DNA of 64,000 nucleotides from Candidatus Tectimicrobiota bacterium (GCA_016192455.1 JACPUC010000030.1:62001-126000), one strand, 5' to 3'. Counted from the stretch's first letter, positions 53,381 through 57,439 are shown. The notes: generated from the letters alone by a model not told the origin. Numbers and translations: made by a program.

Positions 53381-54277
53381 ATGTTGAGAACCCTCGGCAA
53401 GTGGGCTGTTGGATTGTTCGTAGGGATATTAGGGATTCCATTAAATTGGGGGATTGAGTTCTTTTCCAAATTGCGATCCAGGGAAGGGTACGTGCTTTTT
53501 TTCACAATTATCGGTGCATACGTGGCGCTCTATGCGATATTCGTAAGCCAGCACGAACGGCAATTGAATCGTGCGCTGTTTGAACGCCAAGCATTCCTTT
53601 CGATGGTCTCCTCTAACAATCGGGAGATGATTATCACAGCGATGAAAAATTTTGGACCTATCCAATCAATAGAGGTCCGGCAAGAACCATCTCTTTTCAA
53701 GCCATGGACTTGGCTACCGTGGAATTACCTCAAGCCCAATGAAAGCCCCCTCTATCTCTGGGCCCAAACTTTCTTGAACCAATGTGAACCAGGAACCTGC
53801 GGATACACTAAACCTCGTTCAGGTGATAGTTATAGGATTGACCTGCGCCTGGCAAATCTGGAAGGAGCCAACCTGGGCATGAATTGGGTTCTGCGGGCCA
53901 ATTTGAATGGAGCCGACTTACTATGGGCGAAGCTAAGTAAAGCCAATTTGCAAAGAGCCATGTTGCGCGGCGCGCTCATGGGGTCAGTCGACCTGCAGGG
54001 TGCGAATTTACGGTGGGCTGATCTACGCGAAGCTTGCATGGGTTTGGCAACATTGGTGGATACTGACCTGTTCGAAGCAGACCTGCGTAAATCTTCTTTG
54101 CGCTCAGCAGATCTGAAAAGGGCTAATGTAACGAAGGCCGATCTACGTGGTGCCGACCTTTGTTGGGCAAGGAACCTGGCAAATGATCAGATAAAAAGCG
54201 CGAAAACAAACGGCGAAACCTTATTGCCTGGTAATCCACAATGTGTGATAGAGAGGCGTTGCCCACACGCCCCCTAA
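53381..54277 (+). CDS. Membrane-anchored pentapeptide-repeat protein (AT-richer, likely acquired)
   Basis: N-terminal TM segments; A(N/D)LxG/A pentapeptide repeats; abrupt compositional shift. Confidence 0.85.
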   Translation: MLRTLGKWAVGLFVGILGIPLNWGIEFFSKLRSREGYVLFFTIIGAYVALYAIFVSQHERQLNRALFERQAFLSMVSSNNREMIITAMKNFGPIQSIEVRQEPSLFKPWTWLPWNYLKPNESPLYLWAQTFLNQCEPGTCGYTKPRSGDSYRIDLRLANLEGANLGMNWVLRANLNGADLLWAKLSKANLQRAMLRGALMGSVDLQGANLRWADLREACMGLATLVDTDLFEADLRKSSLRSADLKRANVTKADLRGADLCWARNLANDQIKSAKTNGETLLPGNPQCVIERRCPHAP

Positions 54278-54477
54278 AACTTTTGAACCATCTGAGTTTC
54301 AGGTTCTCTCTGCAGGATGCTGGTGCAAGTGGTGGGTTCCACTTAAAAACGAAGAGCCAGCACAATAACTGGGAATTATACCAGTCCTCTCACCACTAAG
54401 AATCTCCTTCGACCTGAAGTGTGGAGCATCGAGAATCCCCTGCTGTGCCTGCAAAGTACGTCGCTCCCCCACTCTCC

Positions 54478-55065
54478 CTACTTCACCTCCGCGAGCAATT
54501 TCCTGAACAGCTTCAGCGACTCCTCGCCGTCCCACTGGCGGGGGCCGATGCCCATGCCGACGAGGTCGCCGCGGTGGTCGATGATGAAGGTGGTGGGGGT
54601 GCCCCGCACCATGTAGAGAATCTGCGCCGCCCCCTCCGGGTCGAGGAGGATTGGGAAGGGGATGGCGTGCTTCTTTACGAAGGGGGCCACCGCCGACTTC
54701 CCCTCGCGGTCGATGGCAACGCCCACCAGCACGAACTTGTCGTTCTTCAGGAGCTCCGACAGCTTGATGAGAGAGGCACGCTCTCGCGCGCAGTAGGGTC
54801 ACCAGGTGGCCCAGAAGTTGAGGAGCATCACCTTGCCCTTGAAGTCGCTCAGCTTCACCGTCTTGTCGTCGAGGTTCGGCAGCGCCACGTCCGGCGCCTG
54901 GATGCCGGGCGGCGCCGGGTGCAGACCGAGCGCGCCCAGCTCCTCCTTGTAGGGGTTCTCCGGAGTCGGCGGGGTCTCGGCGACCGCGCGCCGGCCAAGC
55001 AGGGCGAACGCGAGCAGCACGGCACACGCTACCAGAATGACGTTACGCCGCTGCACTGATGCCAT
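54478..55065 (-). CDS. TlpA/ResA-like redoxin, putative selenoprotein (WATW-U-PYC, TGA 54801-54799)
   Basis: Two ORF-track pieces join in frame to 195 aa: APDVAL...KGKVMLLNFWATW*PYC..E...GTPTTFIID; SECIS-like hairpin 54771-54785. Confidence 0.9.
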
Positions 55066-55316
55066 GAGATGCTCCTTCAACCCCGTTTCGTTCCAACCCG
55101 CCCATACAGGCCCTCGACATCGACTTGCGGCGTGGCGACGCGCGCCGCGCAAGCTTGATTCCTACCGGGCAACGCGGTCAGGCGCTGAGGTATTCCCCCA
55201 CCGCCGGGGCCCCGCCGCGGCAGGGGCCCGCCTCCACCTGGATGCCGCAGCGCGGCGGGCGCGTCTGCCTTCAGGATGAGCCGGCGGGGTCCGGGGCGGC
55301 GCGGTCGCCACGCGGC

Positions 55317-55910
55317 TCAATGCAGGGATTTCGGCCCCACGCGGATCACCGTCATCATGAGGTCGTCCTCGCCGATGCTCTTGATGGTGTGCCGCCAGTT
55401 CGTGGGGACGGTGAACCAGGAACCGGCCGGAACGGCTTTCACGACCTCCCCCTTGGCATCCATCAAAAGCCCCAGGCCCTGCTCGATGTAGCAAATCTCC
55501 GTGGTGCTCATGATCCCCACATTTCCCCCGTTGGGGATGCGCGCCTTGCGGACGGAGAACCAGACGTCATTGCCGAAGTCGACCTTGGCGATGAGCTTCG
55601 CAAAGAACTTCTCTCCCATGCCGGTCGGCTGAAAGGGGAGGGCTTCATCGGGAAGCACGACCTGCTTCTCGAAGCTGCTGATGAGGAGGTCGGGGTCGGG
55701 CACCTTGCCCATCTCCATCGTAGGCATTGGTGGTGTGCGCATCGGTTGCCCGGCGTCGGGTTGCATGCTCTGCATCGGCTGCTGCATCGGCATGGACGAG
55801 GGCGCGCCCGGTTGTCTGCGCGGCATGCTCGGCATTCCCTGCGCCAAGACGCCCGCGGAGCCGAGCCACACCACGAGCATTCCCACCACACTCGCGAGAA
55901 CCCCCCTCAT
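55317..55910 (-). CDS. Exported cupin-domain protein with Met/Gln/Pro-rich N-terminal region
   Basis: Signal peptide; MPSMP..MPMQQPMQSMQ..MRTPPMPTMEM; cupin motif 2 GSWFTVPTNWRH. Confidence 0.75.
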   Translation of the reverse strand: MRGVLASVVGMLVVWLGSAGVLAQGMPSMPRRQPGAPSSMPMQQPMQSMQPDAGQPMRTPPMPTMEMGKVPDPDLLISSFEKQVVLPDEALPFQPTGMGEKFFAKLIAKVDFGNDVWFSVRKARIPNGGNVGIMSTTEICYIEQGLGLLMDAKGEVVKAVPAGSWFTVPTNWRHTIKSIGEDDLMMTVIRVGPKSLH

Positions 55911-55961
55911 GGTCTCCCCTCCTACTGGAGCCACGGGCCGCCGCCGGCCGCGTCGCCTCGG

Positions 55962-56282
55962 TTACTCTCCGGCGGGTTTCTCCGCGGCCCCTCCGGGATC
56001 GCTGGACAGAACGCCGGCCCGGAACCCCACGGACCTGAGGGCGGCGATCATCTGCGCCGCGCCGACGCGGGCTGGGTCGAATGCCACCTCGGCCTTCGCC
56101 TCGCGCAAGCTCACCTGCGCCTTCTCAACTCCGTCGAGCCTCTCCAAGGCTCGTTGAGCGATGATCACTCACGTCCCTCACGTCAGCCCCTCGACGCGCA
56201 GGCTCAGGTTCTCCGCCAGCGCGGCGGCGCTGCCGAGACCGAGGATGCTGGCCGCCAAGAGCAGCGTGACCCAGGTGCGCAT
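55962..56282 (-). CDS. Exported MerP/CopZ-like HMA chaperone, putative double selenoprotein (GLT-U-GT-U)
   Basis: MRTWVTLLLAASILGLGSAAALA-ENLSLRVEGLT*GT*VIIAQRALERLDGVEKAQVSL...; TGA at 56180-56178 and 56171-56169; hairpin 56135-56153. Confidence 0.88.
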
Positions 56283-56284
56283 GC

Positions 56285-56569
56285 TCACTCCTCCCTCTCC
56301 AGGGCGAAGACGCCGTAGGCATGCAGCAGGCGAAACGTCTCGCCGCAGTGCTCGAGGCGGTCGCCCGCGGCGGCCTCATCCGGCAGGGTGAGCATGGTCC
56401 CGCACGCCGGACAGCTCGCGCGCTTGACGATCATGAGGCCGTACCGACCGTGTCGCTCCGAAACTCGGAACAGGAGCCCGGCTCAGTTGGCGCACTCGAA
56501 GCCCTCGCCCGGGCGCGCCCGCGGCCCAAGCTCGACCTCTTGCCCTCAGCCAGGACAGAGCGCCTTCAT
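56285..56569 (-). CDS. Tandem zinc-ribbon protein, putative double selenoprotein (CPG-U ... CAN-U)
   Basis: GGAGG RBS; MKALCPG*GQEVELGPRARPGEGFECAN*AGLLFRVSERHGRYGLMIVKRASCPACGTMLTLPDEAAAGDRLEHCGETFRLLHAYGVFALEREE; fills the gap between grx and HMA genes. Confidence 0.82.
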
Positions 56570-56600
56570 GCCGCCTCCCGATCAGGTGGGTACGTTGAAG

Positions 56601-56834
56601 CTACAGGTGCAGGAGCTGCTTCAGCCGCCCCAGGTCGAAGCCCACGACCACCTCGTCGTCCACTGTGATCACCGGCACGGCAAGCCGACCCGTCTTCGCC
56701 TTCAGCTCGGCGATGGCGCCTTGGTCCGCTTCGACGTTCCGCTCCACGAAGGCGATCTGGTTCTGTGAAAGGAACTCTTTCACCTGTTTGCAGGGCCTTC
56801 ACGTAGGGCTGGTAAAGACCATGACGTTGGGCAT
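56601..56834 (-). CDS. Glutaredoxin/NrdH-like protein, putative selenoprotein (U-RP-C)
   Basis: MPNVMVFTSPT*RPCKQVKEFL...AVPVITVDDEVVVGFD; TGA 56801-56799; hairpin 56765-56783. Confidence 0.92.
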
Positions 56835-56875
56835 CGTTCTCCCTCCCTATGAATTACGGCTGGCGAGGCAGATCC

Positions 56876-57259
56876 TCAGTTCATCGCGCCTTGCAGCAGC
56901 GCGGCGGTTGCGTCCGGGAAGAGATCGAGCGCCAGCGCCGCCAGCAGCGCCAGGGTGGCGCCCAGCAGCATAACGAGGTTGAGGCGCGCCCCGATGAAGC
57001 GGCATGCCACCGCGCGGCAGCGTCGGCGCTCCCTGAAGTATAACGCATACGAGCCAAGAACTCCGAACACGCCGGCTGGCAGGAAGATGGAACGGTACTG
57101 CATCGTCGTGCCCATGAACGCCCCTGTCCCAAGCCCCGTGAGCACGACGAGAAGCGGCAGGACGCAGCAGAGCGAGGCGACGAAGGCCGCCCCTAGGCTC
57201 ACCGCGCCCACTCCGAAAGCGCGCAGGCACTCTCGACCGGCATGCAGGGATACTCTCAT
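56876..57259 (-). CDS. MerT-like mercuric/soft-metal transport protein
   Basis: ASLCCVLPL in TM1, second Cys pair CRAVAC in a loop, three TM segments. Confidence 0.8.
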   Translation of the reverse strand: MRVSLHAGRECLRAFGVGAVSLGAAFVASLCCVLPLLVVLTGLGTGAFMGTTMQYRSIFLPAGVFGVLGSYALYFRERRRCRAVACRFIGARLNLVMLLGATLALLAALALDLFPDATAALLQGAMN

Positions 57260-57439
57260 GAAACGTCCCCTGAACCGGCTTCACAAGCGCAAGACTGGAC
57301 GTCCCGCGTCGCCAGCCGCGTCCACGCCGCGCAGGGTCGCTGCTTGGGGATGACGCCGCGACCGGCGCTGGACCCTGCTGTCAAAGAAAACGATGCGCCG
57401 ACGGGGTTTTATTCGCCCAGCGGCGAAATTTTTCCGCTC

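What the first reader, a model, noticed from the sequence alone, without database searches (positions are those of the whole stretch)
54478..57259. Hidden selenoprotein-dense mer-like soft-metal cluster (6 Sec codons in 4 genes)
Seen: six co-oriented minus-strand genes, namely MerT-like transporter, Grx (UxxC), tandem Zn-ribbon (2x CxxU), exported HMA (UxxU), Met-rich exported cupin and TlpA (UxxC). The first five are 2-51 nt apart; TlpA follows after 251 nt and may be transcribed separately. Every in-frame TGA sits where the motif needs Cys, and each is followed by a hairpin with a G-containing loop. Gene callers fragment or miss four of the six genes. Known: MerT/MerP import Hg(II) through Cys pairs, and selenolate binds Hg and other soft metals more tightly than thiolate. 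Inference: a selenium-based capture, transport and redox-maintenance system for Hg/Ag/Cu(I), with no merA or merR in the window. Sec-containing Grx, TlpA-like and HMA proteins are individually known, but I do not know this combination.
Basis: partly seen in the sequence, partly recalled or inferred. Interest (0 to 1): 0.95.

Follow-up and report, generated by a model that had tools for sequence, protein, structure and literature searches.

The report
Selenoprotein-rich mercury-type metal-handling gene cluster
Six neighbouring genes of a groundwater bacterium encode a mercury-type metal uptake and handling set in which four proteins use selenocysteine in place of key cysteines, and one of the four belongs to a protein family not yet catalogued as a selenoprotein.

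Summary
Six co-oriented minus-strand genes lie at 54478-57259, with six in-frame TGA codons, each at a motif cysteine position.

The genome has selA, selB, selD and tRNA-Sec. Each TGA is followed by a hairpin with a G in the loop. Relatives carry Cys or TGA at the same sites.

Three of the four selenoproteins belong to catalogued kinds: UxxC glutaredoxin, UxxU heavy-metal-binding (HMA) protein (NCBIfam NF041115) and UxxC TlpA/redoxin. The fourth is a tandem LysW-like zinc ribbon, here called ZnR. I found it in no family model or paper searched.

The Sec-glutaredoxin/ZnR pair is invariant: 40 of 40 genome loci. It usually sits with a MerT-like transporter, a UxxU HMA protein, a MerR-type regulator and often a MerB-like lyase. 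True MerA is rarely near.

The Met-rich cupin and TlpA are additions of this genome. Elsewhere that cupin sits beside copper P-type ATPases.

The best reading is a selenium-assisted soft-metal relay of Hg or organomercury type. The metal is inferred, and this genome shows no merR, merB or merA.

This scan has noted related UxxU-HMA/MerT modules on other DNA. I rate it a new variant of a known kind, interest about 0.65.

The parts
56876..57259 (-). MerT-like three-helix membrane protein, 127 aa. It has a CC pair in the first helix (C31, C32) and a cytosolic C81/C86 pair. It ends at a true TGA stop.
   Evidence: Translation. The family hits are weak: MerT NF010314 E 5.5e-6, PF02411 E 0.006. All four Cys are invariant in 82 of 82 relatives.
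56601..56834 (-). Cytoplasmic glutaredoxin-like selenoprotein, 77 aa, motif U12-R-P-C15. The Sec codon is at 56799-56801.
   Evidence: PF00462 E 1.3e-17 across the TGA. Position 12 is U in 51 of 51 loci and in 38 of 39 loci.
56765..56783 (-). SECIS-like hairpin of the Grx gene: GUGAAAG[AGUUC]CUUUCAC.
   Evidence: It is conserved in 40 unique sequences. One pair shows compensatory change: CG 31, AU 6, UA 2.
56285..56569 (-). Tandem LysW-like zinc-ribbon protein (ZnR), 94 aa. The first ribbon is C5-x-x-U8 ... C26-x-x-U29. The second is C53-x-x-C56 ... H73-C74. The Sec codons are at 56546-56548 and 56483-56485.
   Evidence: Translation. There are 62 homologues at E<=1e-3. Relatives carry Cys or Sec at both sites. 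AF2 pLDDT is 94.5 and the top fold match is LysW 3vpb_E.
56507..56531 (-). SECIS-like hairpin after ZnR U8, with loop GGGC.
   Evidence: A hairpin stands at the same distance in 19 Sec-form genes. The strict hairpin is present in 15 of 19 Sec forms against 13 of 62 Cys forms.
56454..56472 (-). SECIS-like hairpin after ZnR U29: UGUUCCGA[GUU]UCGGAGCG.
   Evidence: It stands at the same position in 33 Sec-form genes but with a different stem sequence. It is present in 27 of 33 Sec forms against 22 of 53 Cys forms.
55962..56282 (-). Exported HMA (MerP/CopZ-like) selenoprotein, 106 aa. It has a signal peptide and motif U35-G-T-U38. The Sec codons are at 56178-56180 and 56169-56171.
   Evidence: NF041115 UxxU_metal_bind scores 108.5 bits, above the cut-off of 95. 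In relatives, position 35 is U in 75 of 77 and position 38 is U in 59 and C in 18 of 77.
56135..56153 (-). Single SECIS-like hairpin serving both HMA Sec codons: CGAGCCUU[GGA]GAGGCUCG.
   Evidence: It is conserved in 49 sequences, and one pair is CG in 44 and UA in 3.
55317..55910 (-). Exported protein, 197 aa, with a Met-rich N-terminal stretch and a C-terminal cupin barrel. M134, E138, C140, E143 and H174 are conserved.
   Evidence: Translation, homologues, alignment. The cupin fold matches DddK and TM1459 at E about 6e-8. Relatives sit next to copper-type P-type ATPases.
54478..55065 (-). Exported or membrane-anchored TlpA/ResA-like thiol-disulfide oxidoreductase selenoprotein, 195 aa, motif W-A-T-W-U89-P-Y-C. 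The Sec codon is at 54799-54801.
   Evidence: AhpC-TSA E 1.4e-27, Redoxin E 5.2e-26, and ResA and TlpA models. In five other genomes, 13 of 33 paralogue hits carry one TGA.
54776..54791 (-). SECIS-like hairpin of the TlpA gene: GCGCGC[GAGA]GCGUGC.
   Evidence: Three other Sec-form TlpA genes near ZnR loci have a hairpin at the same place, and three Cys forms do not.

Best explanation
The cluster is a selenium-assisted soft-metal relay of the mer (mercury or organomercury) type.

Shown:
- Four of the six genes are selenoproteins.
- Sec replaces the metal- or redox-active Cys in each of them.
- The core is conserved across several phyla: MerT-like, Sec-Grx, ZnR and UxxU HMA.

Inferred mechanism:
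1. The exported UxxU HMA protein captures Hg(II), or another thiophilic metal, in the periplasm with two selenolates, as MerP does with two thiolates.
2. It passes the metal to the CC pair of the MerT-like channel, and from there to the channel's cytosolic Cys pair.
3. In the cytoplasm the always-paired Sec-glutaredoxin and ZnR take the metal over. ZnR's first ribbon offers a Cys2/Sec2 site.
4. This pair stands in for the NmerA domain or the thiol buffer of classical systems. In relatives it also serves a MerB-like lyase.

In this genome two periplasmic proteins are appended. The Sec-TlpA most likely keeps the UxxU pair reduced. The Met-rich cupin is a further metal-binding protein, probably for Cu(I).
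For: Sec decoding:
- selA 596 bits, selB 366 bits, selD 389 bits and tRNA-Sec are present.
- Hairpins follow all six TGAs but not the three stop TGAs.
- Sec/Cys pairs in relatives: Grx U in 51 of 51; HMA U in 75 of 77 and 59 of 77; ZnR U in 3 and 7 of 62. In 40 genome loci the ZnR pattern at positions 8 and 29 is UU 14, CU 13, CC 11, UC 1 and RC 1.
- Stem pairs show compensatory change. ZnR hairpins keep their place while their sequence differs.
- The TGAs are reproduced in independent contigs.

Module, in 80 metagenome loci anchored on MerT-like:
- HMA downstream in 69 of 70.
- ZnR upstream in 58 of 65.
- Grx in 48 of 55.
- MerR-type regulator in 19 of 24, of which 18 are divergent.
- MerB-like in 10 of 36.

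Module, in 40 genome loci anchored on ZnR: Grx 40 of 40, MerB-like 24, MerT-like 21, HMA 20.

Link to mer:
- The regulators score best on MerR TIGR02051 (134.9 bits, against 121.8 for CueR).
- The lyases score best on MerB (168 and 162 bits).
- One Tectomicrobia MAG carries merB-like, merR, merT-like, grx(U), znr and HMA(UGSU), followed by MerE-like, MerT(RC607)-like and a MerA core ending in CCAG.
- The MerT-like protein keeps all four MerT-type Cys.

Structure: ZnR folds as two LysW-type ribbons.
Against: - No metal, binding or expression data exist. No RNA holder was listed.
- In this genome (88% complete) no MerR-like, MerB-like or true MerA was found. The PF03243 control rang nowhere, so that search alone proves little.
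- The MerT and MerP models score below their curated cut-offs.
- True MerA is absent from all 40 ZnR loci. It is present in only 3 of the 42 ZnR-positive genomes, against 2 of the 109 ZnR-negative genomes, among 151 sampled. Classical Hg(II) reduction is therefore not the usual endpoint.
- The cupin's other contexts are copper ATPases with CueR-like regulators.
- A four-Cys ribbon may bind only structural zinc.
- The loci counted are related to one another, so the counts are not independent events.
Confidence: 0.6

Rival explanations
1. In this genome the cluster is a copper/silver (Cu(I)/Ag(I)) envelope homeostasis set. The HMA acts as a CopZ-like periplasmic chaperone, the Met-rich cupin as a Cu(I) binder, and TlpA as the reductant of copper-site cysteines or selenocysteines. 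The MerT-like protein moves Cu(I) across the membrane.
For: - Relatives of the cupin lie beside heavy-metal/copper P-type ATPases: TIGR01525 565 and 550 bits, TIGR01511 472 and 457 bits.
- They also lie beside CueR-like regulators, and in one case a cupredoxin-like gene.
- The HMA protein also scores on CopZ models at 50-51 bits.
- This genome has no MerR, MerB or MerA.
- Met-rich stretches are typical of Cu(I)/Ag(I) proteins. This last point is recalled knowledge.
Against: - The four-gene core is linked elsewhere to MerB-like lyases, MerE, MerT and MerA, and to regulators that score best as MerR.
- The cupin is absent from 80 of 80 and 40 of 40 core loci.
- No copper ATPase is adjacent in the window.
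Confidence: 0.2
2. The cluster is a trans-membrane redox relay, not a metal transporter. Cytoplasmic Sec-Grx and ZnR would pass reducing equivalents through the Cys pairs of the MerT-like protein to periplasmic UxxU HMA and Sec-TlpA, in the manner of CcdA/DsbD systems.
For: - Thioredoxin-fold selenoproteins sit on both sides of the membrane.
- The membrane protein between them has two conserved Cys pairs.
- TlpA-like genes recur near the module in 6 of 40 loci.
Against: - The MerT family is known as a metal transporter, and nothing seen here shows an electron-transfer role.
- The HMA fold is a metal-binding fold.
- The association with MerR-type metal sensors and MerB-like lyases is not explained.
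Confidence: 0.08
3. The TGAs are ordinary stops, or come from pseudogenes or assembly errors, and the motif positions are coincidence.
For: Under table 11 the four genes are broken. No protein-level evidence exists.
Against: - The complete Sec machinery is present.
- The frames stay open and domain matches span the TGAs.
- TGA is conserved at the same codon in dozens of relatives, which alternate only with Cys.
- Hairpins follow the Sec TGAs and not the stop TGAs.
- Contigs from several runs and from a second study are identical at these codons.
Confidence: 0.03

Closest known systems
MerP-MerT Hg(II) uptake relay of mer operons (Tn501/Tn21 type), with MerR, MerB, MerE and MerA
   Same: - A periplasmic HMA protein sits next to a three-helix membrane protein with a CC pair in helix 1 and a cytosolic Cys pair.
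- In relatives, a MerR-type regulator is transcribed divergently.
- MerB-like lyases are adjacent.
- In one MAG, MerE-like, MerT-like and MerA genes lie nearby.
   Different: - Sec replaces the HMA cysteines.
- Two extra cytoplasmic genes, Sec-Grx and ZnR, are always present.
- MerA is usually missing.
- The MerT, MerP, MerB and MerR models all score below their curated cut-offs.
- This genome lacks merR, merB and merA.
[quoted passage not shown]
   Same: The window's HMA protein scores 108.5 bits, above the cut-off of 95, and has the UxxU motif.
   Different: None for this protein: it is a member. In the passages I read, the catalogue says nothing about the gene neighbourhood.
SAO (selenocysteine-assisted organometallic) system of Clostridioides difficile and other anaerobes (Haft and Gwadz, bioRxiv 10.1101/2022.07.06.499078; passages read)
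   Same: It is a conserved neighbourhood that combines a MerB-like lyase, a thioredoxin-fold selenoprotein and metal-binding selenoproteins. Some MerB-like partners here carry Sec at the position of MerB C159.
   Different: - The families differ. The MerB-like partners score 33-60 bits on SaoL NF040728, whose cut-off is 140.
- Grx does not hit SaoT.
- There is no ABC transporter.
- The hosts are soil and groundwater lineages.
- The window's genome has no MerB-like gene at all.
LysW/ArgW amino-group carrier protein (zinc ribbon)
   Same: Each half of ZnR matches the LysW globular zinc ribbon: NF041070 in 30 of 30 family members with best E 6.5e-17, and Foldseek 3vpb_E at rmsd 1.3 A over 46 columns.
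   Different: - ZnR has two ribbons in tandem.
- It has no acidic carrier tail of the LysW kind (the tail motif is recalled).
- Its context is not lysine or arginine biosynthesis.
- Sec stands at ribbon cysteines.
TlpA/ResA periplasmic thiol-disulfide reductases and their UxxC selenoprotein forms (PMC13188914 Table 1: thiol:disulfide interchange, redoxin, Prx-like)
   Same: It has the AhpC-TSA/Redoxin fold, the WxxW(U/C)xxC motif and an N-terminal signal or anchor. Sec and Cys paralogues coexist in related genomes.
   Different: Here it sits at the end of a metal cluster. Its target is unknown.
MerR-controlled outer-membrane barrel / UxxU HMA / C-U MerT-like modules of Acidobacteriota, noted earlier in this scan (e1-4491864, e1-2080675)
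   Same: Both have a secreted UxxU HMA selenoprotein with a MerT-like partner near mercury-type genes. I saw the barrel plus UxxU-HMA pair in loci L021 and L022.
   Different: Those modules have no Sec-Grx/ZnR pair, and the window has no barrel.

Membership tests
Bacterial selenoprotein genes (Sec decoding) | selA, selB, selD and tRNA-Sec are present in the genome. | tested here: met
   596, 366 and 389 bits, all over their cut-offs; tRNA-SeC with anticodon tca at C8:15297-15393.
Bacterial selenoprotein genes (Sec decoding) | A SECIS hairpin with G in the apical loop lies a short distance 3' of the UGA. The distance range is recalled from the bSECISearch model. | tested here: met
   The loops start 13-32 nt after the codon. 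The TlpA loop at 13 nt is at the short end. Conservation and compensatory change are shown.
Bacterial selenoprotein genes (Sec decoding) | Homologues carry Cys or Sec at the aligned codon. | tested here: met
Bacterial selenoprotein genes (Sec decoding) | Selenium is incorporated into the protein. | not testable with these tools
   This needs 75Se labelling or mass spectrometry.
NF041115 UxxU metal-binding (seleno)protein | The HMM score reaches the curated cut-off of 95 bits, and the UxxU motif is in the HMA loop. | tested here: met
   108.5 bits. The motif is U35-G-T-U38.
Classical mer operon | MerT at equivalog level. | tested here: not met
   NF010314 scores 26.5 bits against a cut-off of 150, and PF02411 scores 17 against 32.9. 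The four MerT-type Cys are nevertheless conserved.
Classical mer operon | MerP at equivalog level. | tested here: not met
   TIGR02052 scores 50.1 bits against a cut-off of 92.55.
Classical mer operon | A MerR regulator is adjacent. | tested here: not met
   None was found in window 52-60 kb or in the genome by phmmer at E<=1e-5. It is present in relatives: 19 of 24 and 15 of 40 loci.
Classical mer operon | MerA mercuric reductase is present. | tested here: not met
   The best hit in the genome scores 374.5 bits, below the cut-off of 454. It has a CVNSGU active site and no C-terminal CC pair. The genome is 88% complete.
Glutaredoxin selenoproteins (PF00462, UxxC) | A Glutaredoxin domain with UxxC in the active-site position. 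| tested here: met
   E 1.3e-17. The motif is U12-R-P-C15.
Uxx-star glutaredoxin-like family (NF041212) | The HMM score reaches the cut-off of 66 bits, and Sec lies three residues from the C-terminus. | tested here: not met
   55 bits. Sec is near the N-terminus.
TlpA/ResA-type UxxC selenoproteins | A Redoxin/AhpC-TSA domain with the W-(U/C)-x-x-C motif. | tested here: met
   E 1.4e-27 and 5.2e-26. The motif is WATWUPYC.
LysW/ArgW carrier proteins | The model score reaches the cut-off of 75 bits. Members also have a C-terminal acidic carrier tail and a lys/arg biosynthesis context (both recalled). | tested here: not met
   48.1 bits. The tail is ...FALEREE. The neighbours are metal genes.
SAO system (Haft and Gwadz) | SaoL (NF040728) and SaoT (NF040730) members are in the neighbourhood. 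| tested here: not met
   There is no MerB-like gene in the genome. The partners in relatives score 33-60 bits, below the cut-off of 140. Grx gives no SaoT hit at E<=0.1.

The most novel reading that the evidence does not exclude
The invariant pair of Sec-glutaredoxin and tandem Zn-ribbon (seleno)protein is the missing cytoplasmic Hg(II) acceptor of organisms that carry MerB-like lyases and MerT/MerP-like importers but no MerA.

On this reading it is a selenium-based, MerA-independent way of handling Hg(II) released from organomercurials. It may end in a Grx-dependent MerA-like flavoenzyme, such as this genome's CVNSGU oxidoreductase on another contig.

ZnR would then be a new selenoprotein family that binds metal at a Cys2/Sec2 ribbon site.
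Probability: 0.35. Interest if true: 0.85.

Novelty: new variant of a known kind. Interest (0 to 1): 0.65.

Why it matters
Christakis et al. 2021 (PMC8261052, passages read) point out that many genomes encode MerB without MerA. They conclude that such cells must have other ways of coping with the Hg(II) that MerB releases.

The module described here offers a concrete, testable candidate. It consists of a MerB-like lyase, Sec-Grx, a Zn-ribbon (seleno)protein, a MerT-like transporter and UxxU HMA, and it is nearly always without MerA. It is common: 42 of 151 sampled genomes of one phylum, and 289 metagenome relatives of its transporter.

It also adds a probable new family to the prokaryotic selenoproteome. 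Because it concentrates up to six Sec codons in one operon, standard gene calling will systematically break or miss these genes in soil and groundwater MAGs.

Tried and rejected
- The search for homologous proteins with ZnR found nothing. The full HMMER scan then found 62 relatives.
- 'Relatives' of G000 in the genome set are all of 'same domain' kinship only, so no near kin could be used.
- The search for related loci with the ZnR alignment failed for lack of a conserved stretch. The MerT-like alignment was used instead.
- An all-against-all clustering of neighbour ORFs was dominated by off-frame translations of the module itself. It gave no further common neighbour.
- Overall folding energy downstream of the ZnR codons does not separate Sec forms from Cys forms (MWU p 0.42 and 0.24). 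Only the position-specific hairpin criterion does.
- The promoter and terminator scan found 0 promoter-like sites. It found 2 terminator-like sites, within the shuffle expectation of 1.9. One lies about 105 nt after the TlpA stop on the minus strand, and none lies in the 251-nt gap. Whether TlpA is co-transcribed stays open.
- The PF03243 (MerB) search of the genome was negative, but its control rang in no genome, so it is uninformative.
- No RNA holder was listed among the public runs.
- Complex prediction was not used. Binding is inferred from gene neighbourhood only, and no natural Cys form of the module's Grx was available.
- Searches of papers for this gene combination returned no description of it. 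Subscription journals and supplementary files were not visible.


Full report
**What is there**

On the minus strand of window 54478-57259 lie six genes:
- MerT-like membrane protein, 57259..56876.
- Glutaredoxin, 56834..56601.
- A 94-residue tandem zinc-ribbon protein, here called ZnR, 56569..56285.
- An exported HMA protein, 56282..55962.
- An exported Met-rich cupin, 55910..55317.
- A TlpA-like oxidoreductase, 55065..54478.

The gaps are 41, 31, 2, 51 and 251 nt. Five of the six starts have GGAGG-type ribosome-binding sites.

Six in-frame TGAs sit exactly at motif cysteines:
- U-R-P-C in Grx.
- C-P-G-U and C-A-N-U in ZnR.
- U-G-T-U in HMA.
- W-U-P-Y-C in TlpA.

Pfam and NCBIfam matches run across the TGAs: Glutaredoxin E 1.3e-17, HMA E 2.7e-10, AhpC-TSA E 1.4e-27. 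Three further TGAs in the cluster are genuine stops, those of the MerT-like gene, ZnR and the cupin.

**Are the TGAs selenocysteine?**

The genome (G000, 31 contigs, 88% complete) encodes:
- selA at 596 bits.
- selB at 366 bits.
- selD at 389 bits, itself with an in-frame TGA.
- a tRNA-Sec.

Each Sec TGA is followed by a hairpin with G among the first two loop bases:
- The uninterrupted stems are 7, 5, 8, 8, 8 and 6 bp. The two HMA codons share one hairpin.
- The three stop TGAs have stems of only 1, 4 and 3 bp.
- Among 1652 TGA triplets of the window, 20% reach 6 bp and 4% reach 8 bp.

Comparative data, from 88 related loci (8 from genomes, 80 from metagenomes):
- Grx has TGA at position 12 in 51 of 51 loci, and Cys at position 15 in 51 of 51.
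- HMA has TGA at position 35 in 75 of 77 loci (Cys in 2). At position 38 it has TGA in 59 and Cys in 18.
- ZnR has Cys in 59 and TGA in 3 of 62 loci at position 8. At position 29 it has Cys in 55 and TGA in 7.

In 40 genome loci of the phylum of G044, a MAG titled Candidatus Methylomirabilia, ZnR is often Sec. The pattern at positions 8 and 29 is UU 14, CU 13, CC 11, UC 1 and RC 1.

Hairpin conservation:
- The Grx hairpin is conserved in 40 unique sequences. One pair is CG in 31, AU in 6 and UA in 2.
- The HMA hairpin is conserved in 49 sequences. One pair is CG in 44 and UA in 3.
- The two ZnR hairpins keep their position while the window's stems differ in sequence from those of the relatives.
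- The strict hairpin is present in 15 of 19 Sec forms against 13 of 62 Cys forms at position 8. At position 29 it is 27 of 33 against 22 of 53.

These sequences are related, so no probability is attached to the counts.

TlpA-like paralogues in five other genomes carry one TGA in 13 of 33 hits. Three Sec-form TlpA genes near ZnR loci show a hairpin at the same place.

Contigs from three runs of one groundwater study, which may be the source of this DNA, match 54400-57400 without a difference. A roughly 98% relative in a soil run of another study keeps the TGAs of Grx, ZnR U8 and both HMA codons. It has a synonymous change in the codon next to U8. I take Sec decoding as very likely, about 0.93.

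**What is known and what is not**

The HMA protein is a member of NCBIfam NF041115, 'UxxU_metal_bind' (108.5 bits, cut-off 95). The 2026 catalogue of prokaryotic selenoproteins (PMC13188914, Table 1 passages read) lists all of the following:
- that family;
- Grx (UxxC);
- thiol:disulfide interchange, redoxin and Prx-like proteins (UxxC);
- a putative mercuric transport protein;
- a cation-transporting ATPase.

A MerP selenoprotein already appears in the GOS study (PMC2398784).

ZnR is different:
- It hits no specific NCBIfam or Pfam family. It matches only the LysW/ArgW ribbon domain, below the cut-off, in 30 of 30 family members.
- Its ten looked-up relatives are named 'hypothetical protein' or carry no name. 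Two further members of one of those clusters are named 'uncharacterized paraquat-inducible protein A'.
- The catalogue text contains neither 'LysW' nor 'ribbon'.
- AF2 gives a confident model (pLDDT 94.5) of two ribbons. The best fold match is LysW (3vpb_E, rmsd 1.3 A over 46 columns).

In ZnR both Sec residues lie in the first ribbon, at the second Cys of each knuckle.

**The neighbourhood is conserved**

In the 80 metagenome loci anchored on the MerT-like gene (the best 80 of 289 relatives), the typical order is MerR (divergent), sometimes MerB-like, then Grx, ZnR, MerT-like and HMA. The counts are:
- HMA directly downstream in 69 of 70 loci with enough flank.
- ZnR directly upstream in 58 of 65.
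- Grx in 48 of 55.
- MerR-type regulator in 19 of 24.
- MerB-like in 10 of 36.
- Cupin in 0 of 80.
- TlpA-like in 1 of 80.

In the 40 genome loci anchored on ZnR:
- Grx is adjacent in 40 of 40.
- MerB-like in 24.
- MerT-like in 21.
- HMA in 20.
- MerR-type in 15.
- TlpA-like somewhere within 8 kb in 6.
- Cupin in 0.
- True MerA in 0.

ZnR occurs in 42 of 151 sampled genomes of that phylum. Two of them are unpublished (G092, G103); without them the count is 40 of 149.

**Link to mercury**

- The regulators score best on MerR TIGR02051 (134.9 and 134.3 bits, against 121.8 and 125.3 for CueR). All are below the cut-off.
- The lyases score best on MerB (168 and 162 bits, cut-off 193).
- A second MerB-like type scores 75-94 bits. 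In some members it carries Sec where MerB has C159.
- In a Tectomicrobia MAG (L126) the order is merB-like, merR, merT-like, grx(UGAC), znr and HMA(UGSU). An ECF sigma factor, a MerE-like gene (49.6 bits), a MerT(RC607)-like gene (57.3 bits) and a MerA core follow. The MerA core has CVNRGC and a C-terminal SCCAG, and is split over two frames.

Against a classical mer function:
- MerA over the cut-off was found in only 5 of 151 genomes of the sampled phylum. Three of these are among the 42 with ZnR.
- G000 has no MerA over the cut-off, no MerB-like gene and no MerR-like gene by my searches.

**The two additions of this genome**

The cupin family has 33 relatives. Its members have a Met-rich N-terminus and a conserved M134, E138, C140, E143 and H174, with a cupin fold. 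In the five genome loci found, it lies in these contexts:
- Next to heavy-metal/copper P-type ATPases in three.
- With a CueR-like regulator in one of those three and two MerR-family regulators, not typed further, in another.
- Next to a cupredoxin-like gene in one.
- Near a further exported UxxU HMA in two.

That points to copper. TlpA-like genes recur near the module more often than I would expect for a family of 4-11 copies per genome, but I did not test this formally.

**Mechanism**

Shown: the gene content, the Sec codons, the conserved pairing, and the cellular sides, read from signal peptides and hydrophobic segments.

Inferred:
1. Periplasmic capture by the UxxU HMA protein.
2. Passage through the MerT-like Cys pairs.
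3. Cytoplasmic hand-over to ZnR and Sec-Grx, which replace the NmerA or thiol buffer and serve MerB-like lyases in relatives.
4. Upkeep of the periplasmic selenols by Sec-TlpA.
5. The cupin acting as an extra Cu(I)-type binder.

The rivals are a copper/silver role for the whole cluster in this genome, a trans-membrane redox relay, and artefact.

**Assessment**

The finding is a new variant of a known kind.

The mer-type MerT/MerP relay and three of the four selenoprotein families are known. This scan has already noted related UxxU-HMA/MerT modules in Acidobacteriota.

Three things are new:
- the Zn-ribbon selenoprotein family;
- its invariant pairing with Sec-Grx;
- the frequent MerB-like partner without MerA.

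The third point bears on the open question raised by Christakis et al. 2021 (PMC8261052): how do MerB-only organisms deal with Hg(II)?

Noticed in passing
G000:C22:15159-16484 (locus L030 about 1498-2865): A MerA-like pyridine-nucleotide disulfide oxidoreductase has an in-frame TGA in the active site (CVNSGU). It scores 374.5 bits on the MerA model, below the cut-off, and has no C-terminal CC pair. An all-Cys orthologue (CVNTGC) exists in G044 (L122). It is probably another selenoprotein. It recalls the Grx-dependent MerA-like enzyme of Synechocystis cited in PMC8261052.
   Followed up: partly
G000:C3:190907-191827: The selD gene of this genome itself carries one in-frame TGA, so it is a Sec-containing SelD.
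   Followed up: no
L109:847-1491 and L075:1885-2514 (metagenome loci): A distinct MerB-like family sits next to Grx and ZnR. It has TGA where MerB has C159. Cys forms occur in L105 and L046.
   Followed up: partly
L021:15-3923 and L022:10016-11508: The C-terminal HMA domain of a P-type ATPase has the motif GMHUxxC. An outer-membrane-barrel-like ORF is followed by exported HMA proteins with UPIU or UPVU. This resembles the modules of earlier notes e1-4491864 and e1-2080675.
   Followed up: partly
L126:8533-9946 (G042:C6): The MerA core gene of the Tectomicrobia MAG is split over two reading frames. This is either a frameshift or an assembly error.
   Followed up: no
window 53400-54200: GC falls from about 0.67 to 0.46-0.51 over a plus-strand pentapeptide-repeat gene (53381-54277) directly after the TlpA gene. 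It may be a foreign insertion.
   Followed up: no
window 55066-55316: A 251-nt GC-rich spacer lies between the cupin and TlpA genes. I found no ORF, promoter-like or terminator-like site in it.
   Followed up: partly
G000 as a whole: All 40 'relatives' offered for this genome are of 'same domain' kinship only, so it has no near kin in the genome set. Public holders of the stretch are groundwater metagenomes.
   Followed up: no
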